From an uncultured bacterium (GTDB taxonomy: Bacteria > Patescibacteriota > Saccharimonadia > Saccharimonadales > CAIOMD01), in contig CAIRQE010000027.1 in assembly GCA_903880655.1 (NCBI GenBank), positions 1-34,618 on the forward strand: a DNA stretch of 34,618 nucleotides. Reading direction: 5' to 3'. Of this stretch, positions 19,801-34,468 are shown one piece after another; within the stretch, counting starts at the first letter, position 1, and every line of letters starts with the position of its first letter. The notes below the pieces were generated by a model. That model saw only the letters and a list, made by a program, of their open reading frames with translations. It did no database searches and was not told the origin of the DNA. The translations under genes and the position numbers were made by a program.

Positions 19801-20622
19801 GGTACTGCCAACGTATGGGAAGAAGGCGATCACTATATTATCCAGGTTGTCGGACAAGACCAGCAATCACTTGTCTTACCACTACTCGGCCGTAAGGCGT
19901 CTGTAGCTGAAGGGCAAGAAGTTGCAATTGGTGATGTTATAGCTTCTAAAGATAAGGCGAGTGAGCCACTTGTTGCGAGCATGGCCGGTAAAGTAACCCT
20001 AAATGAAACGGAAGTAACTATTGTTCCAAAGGATCAGGCTATCGTTCGATACGAAATTCCTGGCTTTAAGCAACTTCTTGTTAAGGATAAAGATTCAGTT
20101 AAGGCGGGCGACCGACTTACTAGTGGATCTGTTAACCTCCATGATCTTATGCGACTCAAGGGTGTTGAATCTACTCAGCGCTACATCATGAACGAAATAA
20201 GTAAGATCTTCGCATCACAGGGTCAAAACATAGCTGACAAACATCTAGAAATTGTCGTACGACAAATGTTTAGCCGTGTCACTATCGAAGAACCGGGTGA
20301 GAGCGAATATGTTACTGGAGATATCGCAAGTAAAGCGGCGGTTATCGAAGCGAACATGGGCCTTGTAGCGAATAAGAAGAAACCTGCACAATTTAGTCAA
20401 TTACTGCTTGGAATTACAAAGGTTTCTACCTGGGCTGATAGCTTCCTCTCTGCAGCAAGCTTCCAGGATACTACTCGAGTACTTATCAGTGCCGCTACAA
20501 GCGGTAAGGTTGATCAACTCTATGGTCTTAAAGAAAACGTTATCTTGGGTCGTAAGATTCCAGTTGGTACTGGGTATATTCCAGAGACTGACGAAGATGA
20601 AACCATTGACGAAGAAGCTTAA
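16810..20622 (+). CDS. rpoC: DNA-directed RNA polymerase subunit beta-prime
   Basis: Catalytic [12 protein letters not shown], plus [20 protein letters not shown] and [10 protein letters not shown]. The ATG overlaps the rpoB stop by 8 nt (ATGCGTAA). A GGAGGTGA Shine-Dalgarno lies upstream. Confidence 0.98.
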
Positions 20623-20644
20623 ATCTGTTTAAATAAAGGAAGTT

Positions 20645-21058
20645 ATGCCAACAATTAATCAATTAGTTAGAAAATCACGAAAGACAAGTGTTTACAAAAG
20701 TAAATCGCCAGCTCTTTTACGTGTGACTAACAACCTAAAAACCAAAGCTTATGAAAAGCCTGCACCATTCAAACGCGGTGTGTGTGTTAAGGTAACAACT
20801 AAAACTCCTAAGAAGCCAAACTCAGCCCTTCGTAAGGTTGCACGTGTGCGCCTTACAAATGGCTATGAAGTTTGGGCCTATATTGGTGGAGAAGGTCACA
20901 ACCTCCAAGAACACGCTGTTGTTCTTATAAGAGGTGGTCGTGTTCCTGACTTACCTGGTGTGCGTTATCACGTAGTACGTGGTAGCTTAGACCTTCAAGG
21001 TGTTAGCAATCGCAAGAATGGCCGTAGCAAATACGGAGCCAAAAAAGATAGTAAATAA
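20645..21058 (+). CDS. rpsL: 30S ribosomal protein S12
   Basis: [10 protein letters not shown]..., [11 protein letters not shown] and [10 protein letters not shown]. It has the Gram-positive-type internal insertion. Confidence 0.97.
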
Positions 21059-21137
21059 TTTTAGTGGCTTCAGTGACCGCTTCTCCCACTAATTTGGGTT
21101 GAAGAGCGAGCAGAAGTATATATAAAGGAGTACAGAA

Positions 21138-21614
21138 ATGCCACGAAAGAAAACCAAGAGCCTGGTACGAGATATACCAGCAGATCGTAAATATAATGAC
21201 GTTCGCGTTGCTCGTTTAATTAACCGAGTAATGCTTAACGGCAAAAAACAACTTGCAGAGAAAATTATCTATGATGGTATGGAAACAGCCGCTAAGAAAT
21301 TGAAGCAAGAAAGTCCGCTTGAAGTGCTTAACCGAGCACTAGATAACGTTAAGCCTAACGTTGAAACTCGTTCACGTCGTGTTGGTGGCGCTAACTATCA
21401 AATCCCATTTGAAGTTCGCGGACAAAGACAGAGTCATCTTACACTTATGTGGTTCGTAGCAGCTGCTCGATCTCGTAAAGGTATGCCAATGGCTGACCGT
21501 GTTGCAGCAGAAATCATGGATGCATTTAATGGTACCGGATCTGCTGTTAAGAAGCGTGAAGATACACACAAAATGGCTGAATCTAACAGAGCATTCGCTC
21601 ACTTCGCACGATAA
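21138..21614 (+). CDS. rpsG: 30S ribosomal protein S7
   Basis: Full-length S7 pattern (MPRKK..., VETRSRRVGGANYQIP, HKMAESNRAFAHF) in the canonical str-operon position. Confidence 0.97.
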   Translation: MPRKKTKSLVRDIPADRKYNDVRVARLINRVMLNGKKQLAEKIIYDGMETAAKKLKQESPLEVLNRALDNVKPNVETRSRRVGGANYQIPFEVRGQRQSHLTLMWFVAAARSRKGMPMADRVAAEIMDAFNGTGSAVKKREDTHKMAESNRAFAHFAR

Positions 21615-21655
21615 GAAACGCATTACTTTTAAAATTTTAATAAAACGAGGAATTT

Positions 21656-23749
21656 ATGGCAGCTAAAGTAACCCCTATGGATAAGATGCGCAATATTGGA
21701 ATTATTGCCCATATTGACGCCGGTAAAACAACAACAACTGAAGGTATTTTGTACCGAACTGGACTAAAGCATAAAATTGGTGCAGTTCACGAAGGTGGAA
21801 CAACAACTGACTGGATGGCACAGGAAAGAGAACGTGGTATCACGATTGTTTCTGCTGCTGTTACCAGCTATTGGAAAGATCACCAGATTAATATTATCGA
21901 TACACCAGGACATATCGACTTTACTGTAGAAGTAGAACGATCACTCCGGGTGCTTGATGGCGCTGTTGTAGTTTTCGACGGTAAAATGGGTGTTGAATCA
22001 CAATCGGAAACTGTATGGCGACAAGCTGACAAATATAAAGTTCCTCGTGCGTGTTTCATTAACAAGATCAACCAAACTGGTGGAGATTTTTATAAGTCTC
22101 TCGATTCAATCCATAATCGTCTTAACAAACGAGCTTTTCCAATTCACCTACCGATCGGTTTTGAGCAAGAAATCAATGGCGTAATTGACCTCGTAACCAT
22201 GAAGTCATACACCTATAAAGAATTTACTGATCACGAACTTATTGAAGGTGATGTACCTGCGGATATGCTTGACCAGGCGACGAAAGCACGAAGTCTCCTC
22301 GTTGAAAACGCAGTTGCAGAAGATGAGAAAATTCTAGAAAAATATTTTGAAGTTGGTGAAGAAGGCTTGAGTATCGCTGAAGTTAAACAAGCTATCCGAA
22401 CAGCAACCCTTAGTGGTCGTTTTTTCCCAGTAACTGGTGGAGATGGACGCGGCGTTATTGTTGAGAAGGTGCTTGATCTTGTTGTAGATGTATTACCAAG
22501 TCCGCTAGATCGTGGTAGCACATGGGGCCATCATCCAAAAACTGACGAAGAAATAGAACGTAAGCCAAATGACAGTGATCCTTTTGCAGCACTAGCCTTT
22601 AAGATTGCGACTGACCCCTTCGTCGGTAAGCTCGCTTACTTCCGTGTTTATAGCGGTAAAGTTTCTGCAGGTAGCTATATCTTAAATAGCTCAACTGGTG
22701 AAAAAGAACGTGTTGGTCGTATTGTACGTATGCAAGCTGACAAGCGTGAGGACGTCACTGAAGTTACTGCCGGAGATATCGCTGCTATTGTTGGCCTGAA
22801 GGGCACGACAACAGGTAACACACTCTGTGATATTGCAAAGCCTATTATCCTTGAAAGTATTACATTCCCTGAACCACCTGTTAGTATTGCGATCGAACCA
22901 GCTACAAAAGCTGACCAAGAAAAAATGGGTATTGCTTTGCAACGGCTTGCTGAAGAAGATCCTACATTCCGAGTGCGAGTTGATCACGAAACTGGCCAAA
23001 CCATTATTAATGGAATGGGTGAGTTACATCTTGAAATCATTGTTGATCGAATGAAGCGAGAATTCAACGTTGTCGCAAATATCGGTGCCCCGCAAGTTGC
23101 TTATCGAGAAACTATCCGTAAGGATGCTGTTGAAATCCAAGGCAAGTTTATACGTCAATCTGGTGGTCGTGGACAATACGGAGACGTATGGCTTCGATTA
23201 TCTCAGAATGAAGCTGGAAAAGGTTTTGAATTCATCAATAGCATTAAGGGTGGTGTTATCCCTACCGAATACATTCCCGCTGTTAAAGCAGGTATTGAAG
23301 AAGCTATGTCTAATGGTGTTCTTGCTGGCTATCCAGTTGTAGATATAAAAGCAGAACTTTATTATGGTAGTTATCACGACGTTGACTCATCTGAAATGGC
23401 CTTTAAGATTGCCGGTTCAATGGCGTTACAAGAAGGCGTTCGAAAAGCAAGTCCAGTACTCCTAGAGCCAGTCATGAAAGTTGTTGCTGTAACCCCAGAA
23501 GAAAACATGGGTGAAGTCATCGGTGACCTTAACTCAAAGCGTGGTCGCATTGAATCAATGGAAGACCTCCAGGCTAACGTTAAAGAAATAACAGCCTTTG
23601 TACCACTTGGCGAAATGTTTGGCTATACAACCAATCTTCGAAGCATGACAAAGGGTCGAGCAAGCAGTTCTATGGAGCTTGATCACTATGCTGATGTTCC
23701 AGGACATGTCGCCGATGCGATCGTCGCAAAAAATGCAAAGAGTGCTTAA
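21656..23749 (+). CDS. fusA: Elongation factor G
   Basis: GTPase G1 AHIDAGKTT and G3 DTPGHIDF, followed by EF-G domains II-V (for example [16 protein letters not shown]). Confidence 0.97.
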
Positions 23750-23760
23750 AAATAATACTC

Positions 23761-23790
23761 TTTACAAACAGATACCAAATTAGTTACAAT
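23761..23790 (+). promoter_or_regulatory. Candidate sigma70-type promoter for tuf (TTTACA-18-TACAAT)
   Basis: TTTACA at 23761-23766 and TACAAT at 23785-23790, in the 106-nt fusA-tuf spacer. Motif match only. Confidence 0.35.
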
Positions 23791-23855
23791 CTATGAGTTA
23801 TGCGTAAAAAGGCATTGCTCTTGAACGCAAAAAATATTAATCCCAAGGAGAACAA

Positions 23856-25040
23856 ATGGCAGAAACATTTGATCGCAGCAAACCGCATGTGAACGTTGGA
23901 ACTATGGGTCACGTTGACCATGGTAAAACTTCACTTACTGCTGCAATAACTATGACATTAGCAAAGCGCTTACCAAGTGCTGTTAACAAAGCTGTTAATT
24001 ATGACCAAATTGACAATGCACCTGAAGAAAAGGCTCGTGGTATAACCATTGCTACATCTCACCAGGAATATGAAAGCGAAAAGCGACACTACGCTCACGT
24101 GGACATGCCGGGTCACGCAGACTATGTAAAGAACATGATTACTGGTGCTGCTCAAATTGACGGTGCTATTCTTGTAGTATCAGCAGCTGACGGCCCTATG
24201 CCTCAGACTCGTGAACACGTTCTTCTTGCTAAGCAAGTTGGTGTTCCAAAGATTCTTGTTTTCCTAAACAAGATGGACCTTGCTGATCCTGAATTAGTAG
24301 AACTAGTTGAAATGGATGTTCGTGAGCTATTAGCTAAGTACGATTACGACGAAAACTGCCCGATCATTAAGGGTTCTGCTACCAAAGCTATCGAAGGCGA
24401 CAAAGAAGCTGAAGATGCTGTCATGGAACTCGTTGCAGCTATGGATGATTTCATTCCAGAGCCAAAGCGAGACCTAGACAAGCCTTTCCTAATGCCTATT
24501 GAAGACGTATTTAGCATCAAGGGTCGTGGTACTGTTGCTACCGGTCGTGTTGAAACTGGAATCGTCAAGGTTAACGAAGAAGTTGAAATCGTTGGTCTTA
24601 AGGACACACGCAAGGTTGTCGTAACTGGTGTTGAAATGTTCAAGAAACAACTTGACCAAGGACAAGCTGGTGACAACGTTGGAATCTTGCTTCGTGGTGT
24701 AGAACGTGATGATATCGAGCGCGGCCAAGTGCTTGCTAAACCAGGTTCTATTACTCCTCATACTGAATTTGATGCTGAAGTATATATCCTTACTAAAGAA
24801 GAAGGTGGACGGCACACTCCTTTCTTCAAGGGATACAAGCCTCAATTCTACTTCCGTACTACGGACGTAACTGGTGAAGTTGAACTTCCAGCAGATAAAG
24901 AAATGGTTATGCCTGGTGATACTATTACCTTCAAGGTTAGCCTACTTAATCCAATTGCTATGGAACAAGGACTACGCTTCGCTATTCGTGAAGGTGGCCG
25001 TACCGTAGGTGCTGGTGTTGTAACTAAGATTACTAAATAA
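23856..25040 (+). CDS. tuf: Elongation factor Tu
   Basis: [18 protein letters not shown] and NKMD. Full-length EF-Tu pattern. AAGGAG Shine-Dalgarno upstream. Confidence 0.98.
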
Positions 25041-25060
25041 TCTGATTGCACTAAAAAATG

Positions 25061-25090
25061 GAGCTGGCTTAAACAACCAGCTCTTTTTTT
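25061..25090 (+). terminator. Intrinsic terminator after tuf
   Basis: Stem GAGCTGG (25061-25067) / CCAGCTC (25077-25083), followed by T7. Confidence 0.8.
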
Positions 25091-25093
25091 GAT

Positions 25094-25122
25094 TTGAAAA
25101 AAACAACTATAACAGGTATAAT
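25094..25122 (+). promoter_or_regulatory. Near-consensus promoter for rpsJ (TTGAAA-17-TATAAT)
   Basis: TTGAAA at 25094-25099, an exactly 17-nt spacer, and TATAAT at 25117-25122. It lies immediately after the tuf terminator and ~95 nt upstream of rpsJ. Confidence 0.65.
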
Positions 25123-25217
25123 AAAACTTGTAAAATAATTGTAATGACAACTCATCCAGATGTGTGCACATAGGTCACAATTCGAGAAGAGGTTACATTA
25201 CGCGACAGGAGCTATAA

Positions 25218-25544
25218 ATGGCAACAGCCGAACAACCAAAGCAACAACGAATTCGCATTCGTCTAAAAGCGTATGATCATAAAGTTATTGATCAATCAGC
25301 AAAGCAGATCGTAGACACCGCGCTACGTACCGGAGCAACAATTGCCGGCCCAATTCCTCTTCCAACTCGGAAAACGGTTTATACGGTCGTTAAAAGCCCC
25401 CACGTGTATAAAAAAGGCCGTGAACAGTTTGAGATGAGAGTGCACAAGCGTCTTATTGATATTTCTAATCCAACCCCTAAGACAATCGATAGTTTAATGA
25501 ATCTATCTTTGCCAGCTGGTTGTGACGCTGAAATTAAGATGTAA
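25218..25544 (+). CDS. rpsJ: 30S ribosomal protein S10
   Basis: [11 protein letters not shown]..., [22 protein letters not shown]. Confidence 0.97.
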
Positions 25545-25565
25545 AGAGAATTTTATTAAAAAAAT

Positions 25566-25594
25566 ACACCCCAATAATATGGGGTGTTTTTTAT
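25566..25594 (+). terminator. Intrinsic terminator immediately after rpsJ
   Basis: Stem ACACCCC (25566-25572) / GGGGTGT (25581-25587), followed by TTTTTTATT. Confidence 0.75.
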
Positions 25595-25597
25595 TGC

Positions 25598-25646
25598 AAA
25601 GATAAGGGGAGAGTTCAAGGGCATATTACTGCCCAAGAACTCTCCC
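25598..25646 (-). terminator. Long hairpin downstream of the minus-strand 76-codon ORF (candidate terminator)
   Basis: GGGAGAGTTC (25607-25616) pairs with GAACTCTCCC (25637-25646). An inner GGGCA/TGCCC stem has a 6-nt loop. An AA/AA internal mismatch separates the two stems. On the minus strand the hairpin is followed by UUAUCUUUG. Confidence 0.5.
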
Positions 25647-25678
25647 AGGTGAATGTGAGTGATGCGGGCCGGTGAGAT

Positions 25679-25909
25679 TTAGGTAAGTGGTACGAATACC
25701 AAATGATCAAAATCAATCCAGCCTGGATCATGTCCTGTGTCTTTGAAGACACGCTTTCGGAATTGCATCGCAACATTCTTGCGATAATTCTCGCTACCAG
25801 CTCTTGCTTTTGCGTAGGTGTTGTCGTTCAGCCGAAGCCGTTCAACAACCCAGCCACGCACATGCGAGACCCGGTAGATGGTGCTGGATCCTCGAGGCAA
25901 CCAGACCAC
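25679..25909 (-). CDS. Small hypothetical protein (73-76 aa; GTG or in-frame TTG start)
   Basis: The ORF has its own upstream TTGTGT-17-TATAGT promoter, a G-rich Shine-Dalgarno (AAAGGGGG) and a downstream hairpin. I recognised no family motif. It lies in a locally GC-rich patch (~50-60% by eye). A coding call is preferred over the overlapping plus-strand ORF but is not certain. Confidence 0.45.
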   Translation of the reverse strand: MVWLPRGSSTIYRVSHVRGWVVERLRLNDNTYAKARAGSENYRKNVAMQFRKRVFKDTGHDPGWIDFDHLVFVPLT

Positions 25910-25952
25910 CCCCTTTGGGTAAAATGCTCTAACAACTTGTCAGAGCGATAAT

Positions 25953-25981
25953 ACTATACAATAAAAAGATAAAATACACAA
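25953..25981 (-). promoter_or_regulatory. Candidate promoter for the 76-codon ORF (TTGTGT-17-TATAGT on minus strand)
   Basis: The reverse complement of 25953-25981 reads TTGTGT ATTTTATCTTTTTATTG TATAGT. Confidence 0.4.
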
Positions 25982-25984
25982 TAA

Positions 25985-26028
25985 GCAAAAAGCCCTACAA
26001 AACTGTTATCACAGTGAAGTAGAGCTTT
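25985..26028 (-). terminator. Intrinsic terminator after the 192-aa ORF
   Basis: On the minus strand AAAGCTCTAC pairs with GTAGGGCTTT (one mismatch) around a 20-nt loop, followed by UUUUGCUUAUU. It starts 4 nt after the TAG stop. Confidence 0.5.
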
Positions 26029-26031
26029 ATG

Positions 26032-26610
26032 CTAGCGCCTTTTTGGAAGGGCGCAATCAAAACTGTAGGCTGTTTTGCCTAATTCTTTTTCATAGGGACG
26101 GGGCAGCACGGTTATTCGAACTGCACTGTGACCAATTCTAAAGAATCGACGAAACTTTCTCGCAACGGTGTCCTTTTGGGGTACATGCCTCGGAACTGTT
26201 GACTTAGTACTAAATGCTTTTCCGTCTATAAGACGATTCAAGCGATTATACAGTAGGTGAGAAATTGTTTCGTAATTGATTGCGCCACGGCCATCTCGTC
26301 GCCACTGGATTTCCAGGTAGGGCATCTTAAATGTGTCGCTCTTATCTTTGATAAGATCATACTTGTGATCAATCGCATAGACGAGAATGAGTGAAATTAT
26401 GATGTCCTCAGCTTCATTCAACTCATTAATTGTAGCCTTGTATCGCGCTGCGATCGCCGGATTAAGGCTGGCCATTACTGATTCAAATGAAGCTTTCCTG
26501 TTTCTTACTCTGTTAAGAGTTCTTCCAAGTTTATTCAGATCTGCTTTTGATCTGGGTATTACTATCCTCAGCTTTATTTTGCTGGTTCGATTCCTTGGCC
26601 GATCGGCCAT
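26032..26610 (-). CDS. Orphan hypothetical protein, 192 aa, highly basic, possible ribbon-helix-helix-like N-terminus
   Basis: Strong Shine-Dalgarno (GAGGAGG, 8 nt before the ATG), with its own promoter and terminator. The protein is rich in Arg/Lys. Its N-terminus KIKLRIVIPRSKADLNKLGRTLNRVRNRKASFESV fits a beta-strand/helix/helix pattern. I recognised no catalytic family motif. Confidence 0.7.
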   Translation of the reverse strand: MADRPRNRTSKIKLRIVIPRSKADLNKLGRTLNRVRNRKASFESVMASLNPAIAARYKATINELNEAEDIIISLILVYAIDHKYDLIKDKSDTFKMPYLEIQWRRDGRGAINYETISHLLYNRLNRLIDGKAFSTKSTVPRHVPQKDTVARKFRRFFRIGHSAVRITVLPRPYEKELGKTAYSFDCALPKRR

Positions 26611-26626
26611 AGAATATACCTCCTCG

Positions 26627-26653
26627 TAGTGGGACTAGTAGGACTAGCAGTAT
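26627..26653. repeat. Tandem 9-nt units TAGTGGGAC / TAGTAGGAC / TAGCAGTAT between the promoter and Shine-Dalgarno of the 192-aa gene
   Basis: Read directly. Units 1 and 2 match 8/9. Unit 3 is degenerate (6/9). They lie at the predicted transcription start of the minus-strand gene. Confidence 0.45.
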
Positions 26654-26654
26654 T

Positions 26655-26683
26655 ACTTTATAACAATAGCTTAGCAAAGTCAA
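26655..26683 (-). promoter_or_regulatory. Candidate promoter for the 192-aa gene (TTGACT-17-TAAAGT on minus strand)
   Basis: The reverse complement of 26655-26683 reads TTGACT TTGCTAAGCTATTGTTA TAAAGT. The -35 is bracketed by a 9-bp inverted repeat, AGCTTAGCA (26668-26676) / TGCTAAGCT (26704-26712). Confidence 0.4.
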
Positions 26684-26744
26684 TTAAACATAAGAATTTT
26701 TTATGCTAAGCTGTACGAGCAATAAAATAATTGCCGAGAAGAAC

Positions 26745-26771
26745 TCTATAAATAAAGCCCATCAGGGCTTT
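26745..26771 (-). terminator. Hairpin terminator at the stop codon of the MprF-like gene (potentially bidirectional)
   Basis: AAAGCCC (26754-26760) ATCA GGGCTTT (26765-26771). It is followed by AUUUAU on the minus strand and by ATTTTTTAT on the plus strand. Confidence 0.5.
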
Positions 26772-28398
26772 ATTTTTTATCTTTGTAGCTTAACAGTGTA
26801 TTAAGTCCAAGTATTATTTGCGGTAAGTTAGCCGCAGACCCCTTATAGAGAATATACCGAGGTTCCCAAGAAGGTTCAAACTTATTTTTGAACTGTTCCA
26901 GCCCTTCGAATGAATAATACCTGCGCCCTATTTTTTTAATCACTATAAGAAATTTGTCTGAAATGCCTGATATATTATCGTCTAATTTGGAAAGGGGGGC
27001 TAGGCCCAAATTTAATGTAGCGATATTATGGTTTCGTAGCTCCTCGATAGTCTTAAGAAAGAGGAAGTGCATGGAAATACTTGGAATATTTTTTCTAAAG
27101 CGCATTAGATCAACGCTCGAATGTAGGTTATCGAATGTAGGTATCAGATTTATAAACGCTTTAGGCTCGTCATCTTTATAGAGCACTGAAACATTGCAAT
27201 CGTTCAAGTAACTGCCATTGAAGTATCCCATAACAAATTCGTATTCTCTTCGGTCATTATTGAGCCAATCATTGGAAATACTTTTTAATTTCGCTATTCT
27301 ATCAATCGTATGGGGAGCTTGCCAGAATTCAACATGAAGATTTTCTGTATTAGCCTTATTCTTTACGTACCTAAAGTGTTTATTATTTTCAATTGATTCA
27401 AAATGAGATATATCTACACGCGCTTCTGAACCAATATATTGTTTTTGAAAAGTAAGTTCTGCCCATCCCTTGGCTTCTTCTTCGTCTGCATGTATAACTG
27501 TAATTTCCCAACCATTATTAAAACATTCATCACTAAATGCCCTTCGTAGTGTTGAGAAATGTGCCCTGTTCCCGGTACAGCCATCAAGAATAAAAGCTAT
27601 CCCATTCTTAAGTCCATAGCAAATGAATGAATCATCATAGAAGAAAAAGTGTTTATTACGAGTTGGCCATATTTTAAAATAATCTTCACTTGACGATGAA
27701 TAGCGTTCTAGGATCCTGTGGGCTTGTGAAAATTGAAAGCTAGAAGAGTTAGCTCCTAATTTACGGGGTCTGAATATTGCGAATAACATGGTGGCAATTG
27801 CAAATAATATGCTGAATCGCATCAAGTTGATTAAGAAATGTGCTTGAGGTGATTCAAATAAGTATTTAGGTATTGGCTTGCCGAGTATTGCATCCCATGT
27901 TATTCGTATATCCTGAGTGGTAGTAAGATGAACGCCGAATTCCCGATTATCAATAATTAAAAATGATGCTGCCACTACCACGAGCAGCACAAAGACCACA
28001 GCTACGCTTGTCGAAACTATTTTACTGGCACTTCTAAAATCACTTCTTACGATGTACTGTTTCCTTGATTGTATAAGCAAAATGAGGATGCCGCTATATA
28101 GAATGAGTGGCAGATGATAACTCTGATGAAGAAAATCAAAAACTATCAATAGCGATAGCCCAATAACTGCAAGAATAAAAGCAGTTCTTTTTCTATTAAA
28201 TAACTGGGCTGAAATATAGAGGAGGATAATACCGATAAAAATTCCTAGTATTCTTGATATTGATTCTGGGTCATATGGTAGATATTGCTCGATACGTGTT
28301 GGAACAATGCTTAACGGAACACTTATAAGAGCAACAACGCCCGCAATTCTAACGAGCCAGGCGCTAATATTTATCGTATTTATTTTTCCTAAACCCAT
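26770..28398 (-). CDS. Aminoacyl-phosphatidylglycerol synthase-like protein (MprF C-terminal/DUF2156-type; six TM helices plus cytosolic domain, no flippase half)
   Basis: The N-terminal ~215 aa contain about six hydrophobic helices. The C-terminal domain carries blocks typical of MprF/LysX synthase domains: FFFYDDSFICYGLKNGIAFILDG, DLMRFR, ATLNLGLAPLS, RRYYSFEGLEQFKNKFEPSWEPRYILY. The gene looks more AT-rich (~35% GC in sampled lines) than its neighbours. Confidence 0.7.
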   Translation of the reverse strand: MGLGKINTINISAWLVRIAGVVALISVPLSIVPTRIEQYLPYDPESISRILGIFIGIILLYISAQLFNRKRTAFILAVIGLSLLIVFDFLHQSYHLPLILYSGILILLIQSRKQYIVRSDFRSASKIVSTSVAVVFVLLVVVAASFLIIDNREFGVHLTTTQDIRITWDAILGKPIPKYLFESPQAHFLINLMRFSILFAIATMLFAIFRPRKLGANSSSFQFSQAHRILERYSSSSEDYFKIWPTRNKHFFFYDDSFICYGLKNGIAFILDGCTGNRAHFSTLRRAFSDECFNNGWEITVIHADEEEAKGWAELTFQKQYIGSEARVDISHFESIENNKHFRYVKNKANTENLHVEFWQAPHTIDRIAKLKSISNDWLNNDRREYEFVMGYFNGSYLNDCNVSVLYKDDEPKAFINLIPTFDNLHSSVDLMRFRKNIPSISMHFLFLKTIEELRNHNIATLNLGLAPLSKLDDNISGISDKFLIVIKKIGRRYYSFEGLEQFKNKFEPSWEPRYILYKGSAANLPQIILGLNTLLSYKDKK

Positions 28399-28545
28399 TG
28401 CTCGTAGTATAGATTAATATCATCAAACTTTAAAATTATGCTTGCAATAGTTTTTATTTGTTTCATACTAAAATAAAACTCGTTCAAATTGAATGAACAA
28501 AAGAAACACAGAGCTAAAATAATTGGGGTAATAGGGTTTAAACGT

Positions 28546-30129
28546 ATGACGACTAAATATATTTTTGTTACAGGTGGAGTTTTAAGTGGAGTAGGAAAGG
28601 GTATTACTGCTGCCAGTATCGGAGCGCTCCTTAAGGCGAGAGGATACAAAGTTAATATCCAAAAGTGTGACCCTTATTTTAATTTTGATGCAGGAACGCT
28701 GAATCCAGCAGAGCATGGAGAAGTATTCGTCACTAAGGATGGAGCCGAAACTGACCTTGATCTTGGGCACTACGAGCGTTTTCTAGATATTGAACTAACA
28801 CAATCGAGCTCTACGATGAGTGGACGTATATTTAGACAAGTAATTGAAGATGAACGAGCAGGAAAGTATCTTGGAAAAACAGTTCAAATTATTCCGCATG
28901 TCACGAACGCGATGCAAGAAGCAATTGCAGAAGCTGGAAAAGGTTTTGATGTGCATATTGTTGAAGTTGGTGGCACTGTAGGAGATTATGAAAGTACTGC
29001 ATTTATTGAAGCTATAAGACAATTCCGCCATCAAGTAGGCGCCAAAAATACACTTTCTGTTCATGTCGTTTATTTGCCCTACCTAACAGCTTCAGCTGAA
29101 GTAAAGTCAAAACCAGCTCAAAATGCAGTAAGAGATCTAAGGGAAGCAGGTATTCAACCAGATATTTTAATTGCTAGAACAGATCATCCGGTGCCAAATG
29201 GTGTTCTTAATAAGCTAAGTCTTTTTGGTGATGTAGCGCGTGAAGCTGTCATCGCACTCCCGACAGTAAAAACTGTCTATAGTGTTCCAGTTATTCTTGA
29301 AGACGCTGGAGTTGGCAGGATTGTTGCCGAACATTTCGGACTAACGAAAAAGAAACCTAATTTGAAAAATTGGCATAACTTAGAGTTAAAAGTTTTATCT
29401 AAAAACAATAAAACCGTAAAGATAGGACTTGTTGCTAAGTATCTTGACCACCAAGACACTTACGCATCTGTTATTGAAGCTATAAAGGCTGCTTGTTGGG
29501 CAGAAGATAAAAAAGCCGATATTAAATGGATCGATGCTGAATCGCTCACTACGAAAAATGTTGCTTCAAAGCTAAAAGGGCTTGATGGAATTGTTGTGCC
29601 AGGTGGCTTCGGTTCAAGGGGTGTTGAAGGAAAAATCGTAGCTGCAACACACGCCTTTAAGCGCAACATTCCCTACTTAGGCCTATGTCTTGGTATGCAA
29701 GTTGCCTGTATTGCCGCAGCGCGGCTTTCAGGTTTGCACGATGCCAACTCAACTGAATTTGATCCCAAAACAACGAGTCCCGTTATAGGACTTATGGAAG
29801 AGCAAAAAACATTAACAGTTATAGGTGGCACTATGCGCCTCGGTAATTATGAGTGTGCGCTGGAAAAGAAATCAAAGGCTGCCAAGCTCTATGGTAAGAC
29901 CAAAATAGAAGAACGACATCGGCATCGCTATGAGTTTTCGAATGATTATGAGGATGCACTTCGCTCTCAAGGACTTACAGTCGTCGGTAGAAATCCACTA
30001 ACTGGGCTTGCTGAAGTAGTAGAGGCATCAGCTAAAAAATACTTTATCGCTAGCCAGTATCATCCAGAATTTAATTCACGCCCAATGCGACCCCACCCAT
30101 TATTTTTAGGCTTGATCCGCTCAATTTAG
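28546..30129 (+). CDS. pyrG: CTP synthase
   Basis: N-terminus MTTKYIFVTGGVLSGVGKGI, glutamine amidotransferase Cys in GLCLGMQ, and HRHRYE. I prefer the ATG at 28546 over the TTG track start at 28489. Confidence 0.95.
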   Translation: MTTKYIFVTGGVLSGVGKGITAASIGALLKARGYKVNIQKCDPYFNFDAGTLNPAEHGEVFVTKDGAETDLDLGHYERFLDIELTQSSSTMSGRIFRQVIEDERAGKYLGKTVQIIPHVTNAMQEAIAEAGKGFDVHIVEVGGTVGDYESTAFIEAIRQFRHQVGAKNTLSVHVVYLPYLTASAEVKSKPAQNAVRDLREAGIQPDILIARTDHPVPNGVLNKLSLFGDVAREAVIALPTVKTVYSVPVILEDAGVGRIVAEHFGLTKKKPNLKNWHNLELKVLSKNNKTVKIGLVAKYLDHQDTYASVIEAIKAACWAEDKKADIKWIDAESLTTKNVASKLKGLDGIVVPGGFGSRGVEGKIVAATHAFKRNIPYLGLCLGMQVACIAAARLSGLHDANSTEFDPKTTSPVIGLMEEQKTLTVIGGTMRLGNYECALEKKSKAAKLYGKTKIEERHRHRYEFSNDYEDALRSQGLTVVGRNPLTGLAEVVEASAKKYFIASQYHPEFNSRPMRPHPLFLGLIRSI

Positions 30130-30158
30130 TCACCCCAATCGGATAGTCATAAATAACC

Positions 30159-30187
30159 TTGACCTAACAGGGATAATCTGCTAGAAT
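30159..30187 (+). promoter_or_regulatory. Candidate promoter upstream of rplC (TTGACC-17-TAGAAT)
   Basis: TTGACC at 30159-30164, a 17-nt spacer, and TAGAAT at 30182-30187. It lies 30 nt after the pyrG stop and ~140 nt before rplC. Confidence 0.5.
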
Positions 30188-30213
30188 TCTTTGGTATATC
30201 AAGATTTTTGTTC

Positions 30214-30267
30214 CTTGGTGAGTCGGTAAGTCTATAAAGATACTGCCGTTCCACCAAGCATTTTTAT
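30214..30267 (+). promoter_or_regulatory. Terminator-like hairpin plus U-tract inside the rplC leader (candidate attenuator)
   Basis: CTTGGTG (30214-30220) pairs with CACCAAG (30252-30258), and an inner CGG/CCG extends the stem. CATTTTTAT follows. A second GC-rich hairpin, GGGCG (30276-30280) / CGCCC (30288-30292), lies downstream. Confidence 0.35.
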
Positions 30268-30328
30268 GCTCTGAAGGGCGCGTCGAACGCCCCTGGTATG
30301 GGAACACCTAAATAAAGAACGGAGAACT

Positions 30329-30940
30329 ATGAAAGCTCTCATTACGAGGAAAGTTGGCATGACTAGTATCATCTCTGAAGATGGTGCGCTCACTCCTGTC
30401 ACTTTGCTTTCCGCTAGTCCCTGTGTTGTTACACAGGTCAAAACAGCAGAAAACGACGGTTATACTGCGGTACAGCTCGGTTTCGAAGAAGGTAAGCATA
30501 CTGCTAAGCCTCAAGTTGGACACTTTAAAAAGTCTGGCGCGAATCCAAAGATTGTACGTGAATTTAGGGTCACTGAAATTGAAGAAGACATAAAAACAGG
30601 AGCTACTTTTGCTGCTGATGTTTTTGAAGTTGGTGATACCGTTCATGTAACAGGTACAAGTAAAGGTAAAGGCTTTGCCGGAACCATTAAGCGACATAAT
30701 TTTAAAAGAGGTCGTAAGACACATGGTGGCCGAAGCTATCGACGCCCAGGTTCAATTGGATCCATGTACCCTCAAAAAGTTTTCAAAGGTATGAAAATGG
30801 CAGGACAAATGGGTCACGAACAAGTTACTGTTCAGAACTTACGTGTTGCTTTAGTTGACCTTGAAAACCAAGTTATTGGTCTTGTTGGCGCCGTACCTGG
30901 CCCACGTAAAGGTATCATCCTTGTGAAAGGAGCTAAATAA
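30329..30940 (+). CDS. rplC: 50S ribosomal protein L3
   Basis: MKALITRKVGMT..., GTSKGKGFAGTIKRHNF. GGAGAA Shine-Dalgarno upstream. Confidence 0.97.
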   Translation: MKALITRKVGMTSIISEDGALTPVTLLSASPCVVTQVKTAENDGYTAVQLGFEEGKHTAKPQVGHFKKSGANPKIVREFRVTEIEEDIKTGATFAADVFEVGDTVHVTGTSKGKGFAGTIKRHNFKRGRKTHGGRSYRRPGSIGSMYPQKVFKGMKMAGQMGHEQVTVQNLRVALVDLENQVIGLVGAVPGPRKGIILVKGAK

Positions 30941-31575
30941 TGGCTACTCCAACATTTACATCATCTGGCGCTAAAGCTACTACAGCCGTGTCACTACCAA
31001 AATCAGTATTCTCTATAGAAGTAACATCACATCAGCTTCTTAAGGATGCATATCTTGCTCATCAAGCGAATACTCGTCCTAATTTAGCTAAGACCCTCAA
31101 AAGAGGTGAAGTTAGTGGTGGTGGTAAAAAACCATGGCAGCAAAAAGGCACAGGACATGCCCGTGTCGGTTCTTCACGAAGTCCCATCTGGCGTAAAGGT
31201 GGTGTTATATTTGGACCATCTGGCAACGAGAACTACAGCCGAAAGATTAATGTCAAGGCTAAACGTCTTGCTATAACTCAAGCGTTATCACTTGCTAGTG
31301 AAGCAAAGAAAGTTATCATCATTGATGATTTTAAAACTACTGGCAAAGTCAGTGATACTGCTAAATTTATGAATAAGATTGGTGCAGATCGAAACGTGCT
31401 TCTTGTGGTTAACGAATTAACTGATCTCGTTAAGCGTTCAACAAATAACCTACCATACGTTGCAGCAGTACAGGCAACTCGTCTTAATGTATGTGACATC
31501 CTTGATGCAGGAGTTATCGTCGTAACTAAAGATTCAATAAGCGCTATTGAAAAATGGCTTGGAGGTACAAAATAA
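30940..31575 (+). CDS. rplD: 50S ribosomal protein L4
   Basis: GGGKKPWQQKGTGHARVGS motif. TAATG overlap with rplC. Confidence 0.96.
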   Translation: MATPTFTSSGAKATTAVSLPKSVFSIEVTSHQLLKDAYLAHQANTRPNLAKTLKRGEVSGGGKKPWQQKGTGHARVGSSRSPIWRKGGVIFGPSGNENYSRKINVKAKRLAITQALSLASEAKKVIIIDDFKTTGKVSDTAKFMNKIGADRNVLLVVNELTDLVKRSTNNLPYVAAVQATRLNVCDILDAGVIVVTKDSISAIEKWLGGTK

Positions 31576-31889
31576 TGGATTTTGTTTTATACCCACGAGT
31601 AAGTGAAAAAGCATACGGCAGTGCAACTGCACTTAACTGCTACGTTTTCAACGTACCACTTACTGCTAATAAAATTGAAGTTAAAAAAGCTGTTGAAACT
31701 AAATACGAAGTTACTGTGGAAACAGTTAACATGGTTCGTATGAAGGGCAAACGAGTTAACCGAGCTATCAATAACCGTGGAACTCGAACTAGAGGAAAAC
31801 GAATTGATTTCAAGAAGGCATATGTACTTGTTAAAGAAGGTCAAACTATTCCAGTCTTTGCATCAGCTGAAGAAGAGGAGAAGAAATAA
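31575..31889 (+). CDS. rplW: 50S ribosomal protein L23
   Basis: MDFVLYPRVSEKA... L23 pattern. The ATG at 31575 overlaps the rplD TAA (TAATG), with GGAGG 10 nt upstream. The track start at 31554 is an in-frame extension inside rplD. Confidence 0.93.
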   Translation: MDFVLYPRVSEKAYGSATALNCYVFNVPLTANKIEVKKAVETKYEVTVETVNMVRMKGKRVNRAINNRGTRTRGKRIDFKKAYVLVKEGQTIPVFASAEEEEKK

Positions 31890-32734
31890 TGGCTATTAAA
31901 TTATTAAATCCAACCACTCCTGGCCGTCGTGGCATGACCACGCAGGACTTCTCTGACATTACTTCAAAGAAGAACAAACCTGTTAAAAGCCTGATTACTA
32001 TCAAAAAAGGTTCAGTTGGGCGAAACAACCAAGGTCGTATTACAACTCGACACCGTGGTGGTGGCGTTCGACGATACTACCGAAATGTTAACTTCAAATT
32101 AGAAGCCGGCACACAAGCAGTTATCGAAGCTATTGAATATGATCCAAACCGATCTGCACGTATTGCTCGAATCAAGGATCAAAACGGTGTTTACCACTAT
32201 ATCCTTGCAGCAAATGGTATGACTGTTGGACAAAAGATTGTTTCTGCTGAGGATGCTCCTATTGAAACTGGTAACAGACTTCCTATTAAGAGTATTCCAA
32301 CCGGTAGTGCTATCTATGCTATTGAACTTCAGATTGGCCGTGGTGCGCAACTAGTGCGAAGTGCTGGTAATAATGCACAGCTCGTCGCCAAAGAAGGCGA
32401 TTACGCACAAGTGAAGTTACCTTCTGGTGAAGTACGTCTAATACATGTTGAATGTACTGCCCAAATTGGTACTGTTGGTAACGCACAGCACCAAAACGTT
32501 AAGATTGGTAAAGCCGGACGAAACCGTAAACTGGGTAAGCGACCAAGCGTTCGTGGTGTGGTTATGAATGCTGTCGATCATCCGCACGGTGGTGGTGACG
32601 GTGGACGTCACCGAATGGCCAAAGCGCCGCGTACTCCATGGGGTCAAAAGACTCTTGGATACAAGACTCGACGACGTAAGCTTACTAATTCATTTATTGT
32701 TAAAACTCGTCATCAGACTAAGAGGAGAGGTTAA
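31889..32734 (+). CDS. rplB: 50S ribosomal protein L2
   Basis: RHRGGG, VMNAVDHPHGGG and GYKTRR motifs. TAATG overlap with rplW. Confidence 0.97.
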   Translation: MAIKLLNPTTPGRRGMTTQDFSDITSKKNKPVKSLITIKKGSVGRNNQGRITTRHRGGGVRRYYRNVNFKLEAGTQAVIEAIEYDPNRSARIARIKDQNGVYHYILAANGMTVGQKIVSAEDAPIETGNRLPIKSIPTGSAIYAIELQIGRGAQLVRSAGNNAQLVAKEGDYAQVKLPSGEVRLIHVECTAQIGTVGNAQHQNVKIGKAGRNRKLGKRPSVRGVVMNAVDHPHGGGDGGRHRMAKAPRTPWGQKTLGYKTRRRKLTNSFIVKTRHQTKRRG

Positions 32735-32737
32735 ACC

Positions 32738-33007
32738 ATGAGTCGTTCACTGAAAAAAGGACCATTTATTGATCCAAAACTTGCAAAGAAAGTTGCGAAA
32801 CTTGGTAATGAAGATCGAACCATTATTAAAACATGGGCTCGTGCTTCAACAATCACTCCTGAATTTGTTGGTAAGACAATAGCGGTACACAACGGTCGTG
32901 TGCATGTACCCGTATTTGTTACAGAAAACATGGTTGGACATAAATTAGGTGAATTTTCACCAACCCGTAAGTTCCGCTCGCACGGCGGTAAATTGGCTAA
33001 GAAGTAG
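32738..33007 (+). CDS. rpsS: 30S ribosomal protein S19
   Basis: [12 protein letters not shown]..., [18 protein letters not shown]. Confidence 0.97.
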
Positions 33008-33018
33008 GAGTTATTACT

Positions 33019-33423
33019 ATGTCTGTACTCGCAATTGCTAAAGGTGTAAGAATGAGCCCACGAAAAGTTGGGGTAGTAGCTGCTCTCGTAAGAGGCCGTA
33101 CTGTTGCTGATGCACTCGTAATCCTAGAACATACTCCACGAAGAAGTGCGGAACCAGTTGCTAAGGTTATTGCAAGTGCTCGAGCTAACGCTGAGCATAA
33201 CCATAACTTGAAGCCTGATACGCTCCGAATTGTAGAAATAAGTGTTTCTCCAGGCCAACGTCTGAAGAGATACCGACCTGCTGCTCGTGGACGAGCTAAT
33301 CCTTTCCAACGACGAACAAGTCACATTCGAGTTGTTGTTGATGGTGAAGCACGTGTATCTAAAAAAGTTTCTGAAAAGGCTCCAAAAGCTGATTCAGCTA
33401 AAGCTAAGAAGGAGACCAAATAA
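33019..33423 (+). CDS. rplV: 50S ribosomal protein L22 (with basic C-terminal extension)
   Basis: SPRKVGVVAALVRGR... and RYRPAARGRA motifs in the canonical position. About 25 extra Lys/Ala-rich C-terminal residues. Confidence 0.95.
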   Translation: MSVLAIAKGVRMSPRKVGVVAALVRGRTVADALVILEHTPRRSAEPVAKVIASARANAEHNHNLKPDTLRIVEISVSPGQRLKRYRPAARGRANPFQRRTSHIRVVVDGEARVSKKVSEKAPKADSAKAKKETK

Positions 33424-34052
33424 TGGGTCAAAAAGTAAATCCAATTAGTTTCCGTCTACAGCTTAATAAGAACTGGCGTAGTAAATGGTTCGCTCCTAAA
33501 AAGGATTACACCATTTTTCTAACACAAGATCTTGCTGTTCGACGAATGATCGATAAAAAAATTGGTTCTCGTGGTGCTATTAATACGGTGGATATAGAAC
33601 GATCTCCAAACATGGTATCCGTTACTATTCACACCGCTAAAGCCGGTGTTGTTATTGGCCGTGGTGGTGCGGGAGCCCAAGAACTAAAGGCTGCTATTGA
33701 AAAAATTTATGGCATCCAAGTTCGAGTTAACATTGAAGAAGTTAAAAAGCCTGAACTACATGCAAAATTAGTTGCTGAAAATATCGCAAACCAACTTGAA
33801 CGACGTATTGCATTTAGACGAGCTATAAAGAGCTCTGCTGGTGCAACTATGCGTGCTGGTGCTAAGGGTATCCGTATTGAAGTCGCTGGACGACTTAATG
33901 GTGCTGAAATGTCACGACGAGAAAAGATGATTGAAGGTTCAGTTCCTCTTCATACCCTTCGTGCAGATATTGACTATGGCTATGTAAGAGCAAAGACTAT
34001 CACCGGTATTATCGGTGTTAAGGTTTGGATCTACAAAGGAGAGGTAAGCTAG
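33423..34052 (+). CDS. rpsC: 30S ribosomal protein S3
   Basis: [12 protein letters not shown]..., KH-domain [13 protein letters not shown] overlap with rplV. Confidence 0.97.
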
Positions 34053-34053
34053 T

Positions 34054-34467: not shown

Positions 34468-34468
34468 T

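What the first reader, a model, noticed from the sequence alone, without database searches (positions are those of the whole stretch)
26032..26760. Orphan 192-aa basic protein with RHH-like N-terminus and a promoter embedded in tandem and inverted repeats
The ORF has a strong Shine-Dalgarno (GAGGAGG), a TTGACT-17-TAAAGT promoter and its own terminator, so it looks like a genuine monocistronic gene. I cannot assign it to any family from motifs. It is very Arg/Lys rich. Residues ~11-50 (KIKLRIVIPRSKADLNKLGRTLNRVRNRKASFESVMASL) fit a strand-helix-helix (ribbon-helix-helix-like) pattern, and about 140 further residues are of unknown nature. Its control region has 2.5 tandem 9-nt units (TAGTGGGAC, TAGTAGGAC, TAGCAGTAT; 26627-26653) at the predicted transcription start. 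A perfect 9-bp inverted repeat (26668-26676 / 26704-12) brackets the -35. That layout is typical of autoregulated DNA-binding proteins such as toxin-antitoxin, plasmid or phage modules. The assignment of these repeats as an operator is an inference.
Basis: partly seen in the sequence, partly recalled or inferred. Interest (0 to 1): 0.65.

Follow-up and report, generated by a model that had tools for sequence, protein, structure and literature searches.

The report
Divergent Mu Gam-like gene in Saccharibacteria
The "orphan" 192-residue basic protein is a real, transcribed gene, but it is a very divergent relative of phage Mu Gam (a Ku-like protein that caps DNA ends), fixed in the core chromosome of a small group of freshwater Saccharibacteria; it is not a ribbon-helix-helix repressor with an operator.

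Summary
The gene is real. It is conserved at the same locus in 17 loci, has dN/dS of about 0.27, a conserved promoter, Shine-Dalgarno and terminator, and RNA contigs in six metatranscriptomes.

It is not an orphan. Its own Pfam score for Phage_Mu_Gam (PF07352) is below the cut-off (19.6 against 28.3 bits). A 45%-identical orthologue passes it. A Gam profile built without this subfamily scores the protein at 68-77 bits over residues 11-178, against at most 9.1 bits for shuffles. A profile-profile comparison with true phage Gams gives 98% probability.

The ribbon-helix-helix reading fails: the model shows two long helices, which lie inside the stretch aligned to Gam. The operator reading fails on conservation: the 9-bp inverted repeat and the tandem 9-mers are lost in close relatives that keep the promoter.

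No prophage, phage, plasmid or viral-contig context was found.

Also seen:
- a linked, conserved 76-aa orphan ORF with a structured 3' hairpin;
- an old divergent allele block covering both genes;
- RNA contigs that cover these two genes but not tuf or rpsJ.

Verdict: new member of a known kind, moderate interest.

The parts
26032..26610 (-). Gam-like (Mu Gam / Ku-like family) CDS. 192 aa, pI 10.5.
   Evidence: ORF. Orthologues at 98/93/75/45% identity, always at the same locus. dN/dS 0.27-0.28. Gam-family profile built without this subfamily: 68-77 bits over residues 11-178. hhalign against phage Gams: 98% probability. RNA contigs over 26068-26634.
26619..26625 (-). Shine-Dalgarno GAGGAGG, 8 nt before the ATG.
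   Evidence: Sequence. AGGAGG is invariant in all 6 aligned loci.
26655..26683 (-). Promoter: -35 TTGACT (26683-26678), 17-nt spacer, -10 TAAAGT (26660-26655). An overlapping TGnTATAAA lies at 26665-26657.
   Evidence: Scan. TTGAC and ATTGTTATAAA(G/A)TAATA are conserved out to the 45%-identity loci. An RNA contig ends at 26634, downstream of the predicted start.
26611..26650 (-). Conserved 5' UTR (TGCTAGTCCT...CACTAC.AGGAGG). It contains the 2.3 tandem 9-mers at 26627-26647.
   Evidence: The sequence block is conserved, but the tandem register holds only in the window and L002. A possible UCCU/AGGA anti-SD pairing is predicted without covariation.
26668..26712 (.). 9-bp perfect inverted repeat (26668-26676 / 26704-26712) around the -35. 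Lineage-specific, so probably not an operator.
   Evidence: Found. Occurs in 5.4% of shuffles. Absent in L002, L001, L003 and L005.
26732..26745 (-). Invariant upstream motif AGTTCTTCTCGGCA, followed by a small hairpin with lineage-specific arms. A better candidate regulatory site than the reported repeats.
   Evidence: Invariant in all 6 loci, including those at 45% protein identity. Function not tested.
25987..26030 (-). Intrinsic terminator of the Gam-like gene: a long interrupted hairpin followed by TTTTT.
   Evidence: -25 kcal/mol, z = -6.45. The stem is kept by compensatory changes in L003. RNA contigs leave a gap at 25934-26067.
25679..25909 (-). Linked small orphan ORF. 76 aa from the GTG, or 73 aa from the TTG at 25900. 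pI 10.3. Own promoter: TTGTGT (25981-25976), 17-nt spacer, TATAGT (25958-25953).
   Evidence: The frame is open in all loci. Third-position bias appears in this frame only, with dN/dS 0.19-0.29. Present next to the Gam-like gene in 17 of 17 loci. RNA contig at 25724-25933. No family hit. Only near-identical homologues.
25607..25646 (-). Conserved 15-bp hairpin in the 3' UTR of the small ORF.
   Evidence: Invariant across alleles whose flanks vary. L003 shows 3 compensatory pairs and one G-U pair that only works on the - strand.
25566..25587 (.). Bidirectional terminator shared by the small ORF (-) and rpsJ (+).
   Evidence: Conserved.

Best explanation
The ORF encodes a very divergent, unusually basic member of the phage Mu Gam family (PF07352, 'host-nuclease inhibitor Gam', the phage and bacterial counterpart of Ku). 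It is a stand-alone chromosomal gene in a narrow clade of freshwater Candidatus Saccharibacteria. It sits between rpsJ and an mprF-like gene and pyrG, and it has its own sigma-70-type promoter, strong Shine-Dalgarno and intrinsic terminator.

Shown here:
- homology to the family through intermediate sequences;
- purifying selection;
- fixed synteny without any phage genes;
- transcription in situ.

Inferred from what is known of Mu Gam (PMC1378119; bioRxiv 10.1101/2022.02.08.479637):
- the protein dimerises through its long N-terminal helices into a ring;
- the ring threads onto double-stranded DNA ends without sequence specificity;
- it shields the ends from exonucleases and may help ligase-dependent end joining, or preserve linear DNA taken up by the cell.

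The repeats near the promoter are lineage-specific. They are not needed to explain the gene.
For: Family:
- Window protein against Pfam Phage_Mu_Gam: E = 9e-4, 19.6 bits. It is the only hit at E <= 10.
- Window protein against PHROG 491, 'Mu Gam-like end protection': E = 2.6e-4.
- The syntenic orthologue P0004 passes the Pfam cut-off, 35.5 against 28.3 bits, and hits phrog_491 at 1.5e-8.
- An exhaustive HMMER search with the subfamily profile finds P0006, P0007 and P0008 at 1.6e-11, 1.2e-9 and 5e-7. These score 41-58 bits on PF07352.
- A profile of 7 such intermediates, with or without 5 authentic phage Gams and with the window subfamily left out, scores the window protein at 68-77 bits over residues 11-178. 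The best of 2000 shuffles scores 9.1 bits and the reversed sequence scores 0.4 bits.
- hhalign of the extended family against Mu, Pasteurella, Pseudomonas, Stx-phage and Rhodobacter Gams: 98% probability, E = 1.6e-13, window residues 10-147 aligned to Mu Gam 8-144.
- The best PDB sequence hit is 2p2u, 'host-nuclease inhibitor protein Gam' (E = 0.06).

Real gene:
- dN/dS is 0.27-0.28 in three comparisons.
- All 17 loci have the same arrangement.

Expression:
- RNA contigs in six metatranscriptome runs cover the gene, while a DNA run covers the whole region evenly.

Not a prophage:
- The neighbours are core genes.
- No match in phage records, plasmid records or IMG/VR viral contigs.
Against: - The window protein alone does not reach Pfam's curated cut-off.
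- Against a profile of the Mu-type phage Gams only, it scores 7.3 bits, no better than shuffles.
- hhalign of the four closest sequences alone gives only 10.8% probability. Membership therefore rests on a chain through intermediates.
- Both AlphaFold models are of low confidence (pLDDT 62). Foldseek found neither 2p2u nor any phage Gam, so the fold is not confirmed.
- No biochemical property was tested: neither the dimer, nor end binding, nor nuclease protection.
- The net charge of +22, against about +1 for Mu Gam, and the apparently high RNA level could mean a changed role, such as general DNA coating.
Confidence: 0.72

Rival explanations
1. Autoregulated sequence-specific DNA-binding protein. 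A ribbon-helix-helix N-terminus binds the tandem and inverted repeats around its own promoter, as in antitoxin, plasmid or phage repressor modules.
For: The repeats exist and are mildly unusual within this sequence. The protein is very basic. The 5' UTR and an upstream motif are strongly conserved, so some regulation of this promoter is likely.
Against: No RHH family appears at E <= 10. The models show two long helices and no N-terminal strand, and this segment aligns to the Gam family. The inverted repeat is absent in L002, L001, L003 and L005, and the tandem register is lost outside the window and L002, although the protein's N-terminus is almost invariant. No toxin or defence model matches. 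The downstream small ORF has its own promoter, placed after a terminator.
Confidence: 0.06
2. A Gam-derived protein that has been re-purposed as an abundant general DNA-coating (nucleoid-associated) protein. It may work with the linked 76-aa basic protein rather than as an end-specific cap.
For: Net charge is +22 and pI 10.5, against 7.8 for Mu Gam. The promoter and Shine-Dalgarno are strong and conserved. In six metatranscriptomes the only same-organism contigs in 19.6 kb fall on this gene and the small ORF, not on tuf, rpsJ, fusA or rpoBC. No RNA run holds tuf-rpsJ words. The small ORF accompanies it in 17 of 17 loci and lies in the same divergent allele block.
Against: Contig-level RNA data are a poor measure of abundance, and the runs were picked because they hold this locus. 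The gene evolves fast (45% identity where EF-Tu is 98% identical) and occurs only in a narrow clade, which is unusual for a core nucleoid protein. No binding data exist.
Confidence: 0.15
3. A decaying remnant of a Mu-like prophage, or a spurious ORF, with no present function.
For: Gam genes in bacterial genomes are usually ascribed to prophages (PMC1378119). The subfamily is rare in databases.
Against: The frame is intact in 17 loci across three allele classes down to 45% identity. dN/dS is 0.27, the expression signals are conserved, and RNA is detected. No other phage gene lies nearby.
Confidence: 0.03

Closest known systems
Bacteriophage Mu Gam (gp10, 'host nuclease inhibitor'; Pfam PF07352, PHROG 491), the phage orthologue of Ku
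   Same: Similar size (192 against 174 aa). Collinear alignment over almost the whole length (window 10-147 to Mu Gam 8-144; residues 11-178 to the family profile). Shared motifs: h-P-(Q/R)-(S/N) near the N-terminus, L..LG, Y/W-x-x-x-(H/N)-(K/R)-x-(E/D)-L, the (I/V)-x-W-R strand, and a 'G...F(I/V)..K..V.K' segment. The predicted long N-terminal helices followed by an alpha/beta part are in keeping with a Gam-type protein, but the models are of low confidence and the fold was not confirmed.
   Different: Direct similarity to Mu-type Gams is not significant (phage-only profile). The link needs intermediate sequences. The protein is much more basic (pI 10.5 against 7.8). It is not in a transposable-phage early operon. 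It is a monocistronic gene in the core chromosome of a CPR bacterium, with no phage, plasmid or viral-contig relatives found.
2P2U, putative host-nuclease inhibitor Gam (structural-genomics entry)
   Same: Best sequence hit in the PDB for the family profile, aligned over profile positions 18-143.
   Different: E = 0.06 only. Foldseek with the low-confidence models did not retrieve it.
Bacterial Ku (NHEJ end-binding homodimer, partner of LigD)
   Same: Expected mode of action by analogy: a homodimeric ring on double-stranded DNA ends. Mu Gam can support ligase-dependent end joining in E. coli (bioRxiv 10.1101/2022.02.08.479637).
   Different: No Ku Pfam hit at E <= 10. No ligD-like neighbour. 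Whether this genome has any NHEJ ligase was not examined.
Ribbon-helix-helix repressors and antitoxins (Arc/MetJ/CopG type)
   Same: Small, basic, and preceded by repeats near its promoter.
   Different: No RHH profile hit. No predicted N-terminal strand. The helices are 26 and 31 residues long. The repeats are not conserved.

Membership tests
Phage Mu Gam-like (Pfam PF07352 / PHROG 491) | The protein itself scores above the curated family threshold | tested here: not met
   19.6 bits against a cut-off of 28.3, E = 9e-4. It is the only Pfam hit at E <= 10. PHROG 491 gives E = 2.6e-4.
Phage Mu Gam-like (Pfam PF07352 / PHROG 491) | Homology to family members shown through orthologues and intermediates (transitive profile evidence) | tested here: met
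   The syntenic orthologue P0004 scores 35.5 bits, above the cut-off. The subfamily profile finds P0006, P0007 and P0008 at 1.6e-11 to 5e-7, and these score 41-58 bits on PF07352. A profile without the window subfamily scores the window protein at 68-77 bits, against at most 9.1 bits for 2000 shuffles. hhalign against authentic phage Gams gives 98% probability, E = 1.6e-13.
Phage Mu Gam-like (Pfam PF07352 / PHROG 491) | Single-domain protein of about 170-190 aa, aligned collinearly over most of its length, with a long N-terminal helical region followed by an alpha/beta part | tested here: met
   192 aa. Aligned over residues 11-178. Predicted helices at 22-47 and 51-81, then strands and helices. 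The models are of low confidence.
Phage Mu Gam-like (Pfam PF07352 / PHROG 491) | Three-dimensional fold like solved or predicted Gam structures (2p2u; Ku-like core) | tested here: inconclusive
   pLDDT is 62 in both models. Foldseek against PDB (twice) and BFVD gave no hit at E <= 0.001 and no Gam.
Phage Mu Gam-like (Pfam PF07352 / PHROG 491) | Homodimer that binds double-stranded DNA ends and protects them from exonucleases | not testable with these tools
   Needs purified protein. This property is known for Mu Gam (PMC1378119).
Phage Mu Gam-like (Pfam PF07352 / PHROG 491) | Usual context: early region of a Mu-like transposable phage or prophage | tested here: not met
   The neighbours are tuf, rpsJ, an mprF-like gene, pyrG and rplC in all loci. 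No phage, plasmid or viral-contig relative was found. Context is typical of the family, not part of its definition.
Ribbon-helix-helix DNA-binding proteins / RHH antitoxins | N-terminal beta-strand followed by two short helices, recognised by RHH profiles | tested here: not met
   No RHH family at E <= 10. No strand before residue 93. The helices are 26 and 31 residues long.
Ribbon-helix-helix DNA-binding proteins / RHH antitoxins | Conserved repeated or palindromic operator at its own promoter | tested here: not met
   The inverted repeat is present only in the window and L009. The tandem register holds only in the window and L002. The promoter itself is invariant.
Ribbon-helix-helix DNA-binding proteins / RHH antitoxins | Co-transcribed toxin partner | tested here: not met
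   The only linked gene, the 76-aa ORF, lies behind a strong terminator and has its own promoter. It matches no toxin or defence model.
Bacterial Ku (PF02735) | Match to the Ku core profile | tested here: not met
   No Ku hit at E <= 10 in Pfam or in the PDB sequence searches.

The most novel reading that the evidence does not exclude
The Gam-like gene and the linked 76-aa orphan gene, with its structured 3' hairpin, form a domesticated two-gene cassette. The cassette is among the most strongly transcribed loci of these epibiotic Saccharibacteria and is kept as ancient, highly divergent alleles (dS about 1) in otherwise near-identical genomes. That pattern would point to a conflict-related or DNA-uptake-related role. 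One example would be protecting the cell's own or imported linear DNA from host or phage nucleases in an organism that lives on acquired nucleic acids. It would not fit a passive prophage leftover.
Probability: 0.2. Interest if true: 0.6.

Novelty: new member of a known kind. Interest (0 to 1): 0.38.

Why it matters
Gam and Ku proteins are the only known ring-shaped caps for DNA ends. Bacterial Gam genes are normally written off as prophage cargo.

This one has lost every trace of phage context. It sits inside the ribosomal-protein gene cluster of a reduced-genome CPR epibiont, and its RNA is more readily detected in lake metatranscriptomes than that of tuf. If it really caps DNA ends, it would give these minimal cells a cheap way to protect or rejoin broken DNA, or to preserve DNA taken up from outside. 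It would also be a very basic, very divergent Gam that could be useful as a double-strand-break probe.

For the scan itself the lesson is narrower. The orphan label and the RHH/operator reading do not survive profile searches and cross-species comparison.

Tried and rejected
- Structure route. Two AlphaFold2 runs (4- and 12-sequence alignments) gave pLDDT 62.5 and 61.9. Three Foldseek searches (PDB twice, BFVD once) returned only coiled-coil noise. The fold is neither confirmed nor refuted.
- Direct comparison with Mu-type Gams. hhalign with the four closest sequences gave 10.8% probability. A phage-only HMM gave 7.3 bits, no better than shuffles. tblastn of P0008 and of the window protein against phage and plasmid records found nothing.
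- Non-coding RNA in the 487-nt 'gap' downstream of the gene. I first suspected a structured RNA or tmRNA, because the gap is 91% identical to L001, more than the ORF itself. Rfam and ARAGORN found nothing. Codon-position analysis then showed that most of the gap is a small protein-coding gene. Only the 40-nt hairpin at 25607-25646 behaves as RNA structure.
- Defence or toxin-antitoxin system. PADLOC gave no hit for either gene or for the mprF-like neighbour.
- Identity of the small ORF. Pfam, NCBIfam, PHROGs and PADLOC gave nothing. The 5.8-billion-protein search found only near-identical copies. A PDB profile search gave a weak, non-significant resemblance to the C-terminus of the MecR1 sensor domain (E = 0.5).
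- 5' UTR structure. RNAalifold proposes a UCCU/AGGA pairing that would mask the Shine-Dalgarno, but all of those pairs are invariant, so there is no covariation support.
- Alignment A4 was too divergent for the search for related loci.
Full report
**1. Observation**

The ORF at 26032..26610 on the minus strand encodes 192 residues. The listed signals are all present:
- GAGGAGG at 26619-26625, 8 nt upstream of the ATG.
- TTGACT, 17-nt spacer, TAAAGT at 26683-26655.
- 2.3 tandem 9-mers at 26627-26647.
- A perfect 9-bp inverted repeat at 26668-26676 / 26704-26712.
- A strong terminator hairpin with a T-run at about 25987-26030 (-25 kcal/mol, z = -6.45).

In 5000 dinucleotide shuffles of the 159-nt upstream region, such an inverted repeat appears in 5.4%, such a tandem in 1.6%, and both in 0.14%. 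The protein has 41 K+R against 19 D+E and a pI of 10.5.

**2. The gene is real**

Homologues at 98, 93, 75-76 and 45% identity exist. In all 17 loci recovered, the gene lies in the same place and orientation, next to rpsJ. The one named genome is 'uncultured Candidatus Saccharibacteria bacterium'. The DNA runs that hold the stretch are lake and freshwater metagenomes.

dN/dS against three relatives is 0.27-0.28. For tuf and rpsJ it is 0.00-0.03. The -35, the -10, a 40-nt 5' UTR and the Shine-Dalgarno are conserved even where the protein is only 45% identical. The terminator stem is kept by compensatory changes.

Six metatranscriptome runs from three studies contain contigs at 95% identity or more over 26068-26634. 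One contig ends at 26634, just downstream of the predicted start site. A DNA run covers the whole region evenly.

**3. What it is**

The protein's only Pfam hit at E <= 10 is Phage_Mu_Gam, at 19.6 bits and below the 28.3-bit cut-off. PHROG 491, 'Mu Gam-like end protection', gives E = 2.6e-4.

The evidence becomes solid through relatives:
- The syntenic orthologue P0004 passes the Pfam cut-off at 35.5 bits.
- An exhaustive HMMER search of 1.84 billion representatives with the subfamily profile finds only seven proteins. Three of them (E = 1.6e-11 to 5e-7) score 41-58 bits on PF07352.
- I built a profile from seven such intermediates, with or without five authentic phage Gams (Mu, Pasteurella, Pseudomonas JBD5, an Stx phage and Rhodobacter). 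The window subfamily was left out.
- That profile scores the window protein at 68-77 bits over residues 11-178. The best of 2000 shuffles scores 9.1 bits and the reversed sequence 0.4 bits.
- hhalign of the extended family against the five phage Gams gives 98% probability and E = 1.6e-13, aligning window residues 10-147 to Mu Gam 8-144.
- The best PDB sequence hit is 2p2u, a putative Gam (E = 0.06).

Limits:
- Direct similarity to Mu-type Gams alone is not significant.
- The AlphaFold models are poor (pLDDT 62).
- Foldseek was uninformative.

I therefore file the protein as a divergent member of the Gam family on sequence-profile evidence. The fold and the activity are untested.

**4.

The 'RHH' segment (residues 11-50) lies inside the stretch aligned to Gam. 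The I-P-R-S motif corresponds to the family's V-P-Q-(N/S). The models show no N-terminal strand and two helices of 26 and 31 residues.

The inverted repeat is present only in the window and L009. It is missing in L002 (93% protein identity), L001, L003 and L005. The tandem register is broken by a 1-nt indel outside the window and L002. The promoter hexamers between and beside the repeats are invariant, and the protein's N-terminal 75 residues hardly change. An operator that drifts while both the promoter and the supposed DNA-reading head stay fixed is unlikely.

A better candidate for regulation is the invariant motif AGTTCTTCTCGGCA at 26732-26745, or the conserved 5' UTR. Neither was tested. 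No toxin or defence model matches.

**5. Context**

The window is core chromosome. It carries recG, a class A PBP, tyrS, hisS, tig, clpP, rpoB/C, rpsL/G, fusA, tuf and rpsJ. After that come three minus-strand genes: the small ORF, the Gam-like gene and an mprF-like LPG_synthase_C gene. They are followed by pyrG, rplC and further ribosomal-protein genes.

There are no phage genes nearby. No relative was found in 50,697 phage records, 72,556 plasmids or IMG/VR viral contigs. The gene is thus a stand-alone chromosomal Gam, not prophage cargo.

**6. Likely mechanism**

This is inferred from the family. [quoted passage not shown] It is described as a doughnut-shaped dimer that slides on DNA and slows RecBCD. 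It can support LigA-dependent end joining (bioRxiv 10.1101/2022.02.08.479637). The same review notes that Gam-carrying bacteria tend to be naturally competent (PMC1378119).

I propose that the Saccharibacteria protein dimerises through its long helices and caps DNA ends. Its much higher positive charge (+22, against about +1 for Mu Gam) and its apparently high RNA level leave room for a broader DNA-coating role. I list that as the main rival.

**7. Additional findings**

(a) The 487-nt 'intergenic' stretch downstream is 91% identical to L001, more than the ORF itself. It is not a known RNA. It contains a conserved 76-aa basic ORF at 25679-25909 (-), with frame-specific third-position bias and dN/dS of 0.19-0.29. 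The ORF has its own promoter and no detectable family.

(b) A 15-bp hairpin at 25607-25646 follows the small ORF. L003 shows three compensatory pairs and one G-U pair specific to the minus strand.

(c) The small ORF accompanies the Gam-like gene in 17 of 17 loci.

(d) Between the window and L021 the flanks are 95-100% identical, but about 25350-26440 is only 68-88% identical. That block spans Gam-like codons 58-192, the small ORF, the hairpin and the 3' end of rpsJ. Within it dS is about 1.0 and dN/dS is 0.21. This is an old allele exchanged by recombination, not recent fast evolution.

(e) The mprF-like gene is precisely deleted in some relatives.

(f) No RNA run holds tuf-rpsJ words of this organism, whereas six hold the Gam-like locus.

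**8. Verdict**

- The central claims do not hold: orphan status, the RHH head, and an operator made of the repeats.
- Novelty: a new, highly divergent and unusually placed member of a known family.
- Interest is moderate. It comes from the non-phage chromosomal fixation in a CPR epibiont, the apparent high transcription, and the linked orphan ORF with its allele block.

Noticed in passing
window 25679-25909 (-); promoter 25953-25981: A conserved small ORF lies in what looks like an intergenic gap. It is 76 aa from the GTG, or 73 aa from the TTG at 25900, with pI 10.3. Third-position bias appears in this frame only, and dN/dS is 0.19-0.29. It is present next to the Gam-like gene in 17 of 17 loci and is covered by an RNA contig. 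No family was found. The only lead is a weak, non-significant resemblance to the C-terminus of the MecR1 sensor domain (E = 0.5).
   Followed up: partly
window 25607-25646 (-): A 15-bp hairpin (GGGAGAGTTCTTGGGC...GCCCTTGAACTCTCCC) sits in the 3' UTR of the small ORF. It is invariant across alleles whose flanks vary. In L003 it is kept by 3 compensatory pairs and one minus-strand G-U pair. Its function is unknown. Its 5' arm shares AGAGTTCTT..GGCA with the invariant motif upstream of the Gam-like promoter (26732-26747).
   Followed up: partly
window ~25350-26440, compared with L021/L001/L022/L009: A divergent allele block. Genomes that are 95-100% identical in tuf, pyrG, the mprF-like gene and rplC are only 68-88% identical across Gam-like codons 58-192, the small ORF, the hairpin and the 3' end of rpsJ. 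Within the block dS is about 1.0 and dN/dS is 0.21. dS is also mosaic between genes: in L002 it is 0.11 for the Gam-like gene and 0.35 for tuf, while in L001 it is 0.58 and 0.08. This points to recombination or balancing selection at the locus.
   Followed up: partly
window 26770-28398 (-), compared with L001 9663-9830, L018 and L022: The mprF-like gene (LPG_synthase_C, 542 aa) shows presence/absence polymorphism. Aligned in detail for L001, the relative keeps only the first ~15 and last ~4 codons plus the terminator, a clean internal deletion. L018 and L022 show no mprF match and were not aligned in detail.
   Followed up: partly
window 25545-30328: The S10 ribosomal-protein operon is split. 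rpsJ is separated from rplC by three minus-strand genes (small ORF, Gam-like, mprF-like) and by pyrG on the plus strand. The arrangement is conserved in all related loci.
   Followed up: no
window 15000-34618 in RNA runs X25-X30: In six lake and freshwater metatranscriptomes, the only near-identical full-contig matches fall on the Gam-like gene, plus the small ORF in one run. None fall on tuf, rpsJ, fusA, rpoBC or the ribosomal-protein genes. No RNA run holds tuf-rpsJ words, while a DNA run covers everything evenly. This suggests unusually high or stable RNA from the locus. The evidence is at contig level only.
   Followed up: partly
window 26597-26608: A perfect 12-bp palindrome GGCCGATCGGCC spans codons 2-5 of the Gam-like gene. 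It is degraded in the 75%-identity alleles (GGCCAATCGGCC), so it is probably a by-product of the A-D-R-P codons.
   Followed up: partly
window 1189-1959 (+): A PIN_9 plus TRAM domain protein (256 aa) lies next to a radA-like gene (ChlI/Lon_C domains). This is ordinary housekeeping context, noted only for annotation.
   Followed up: no
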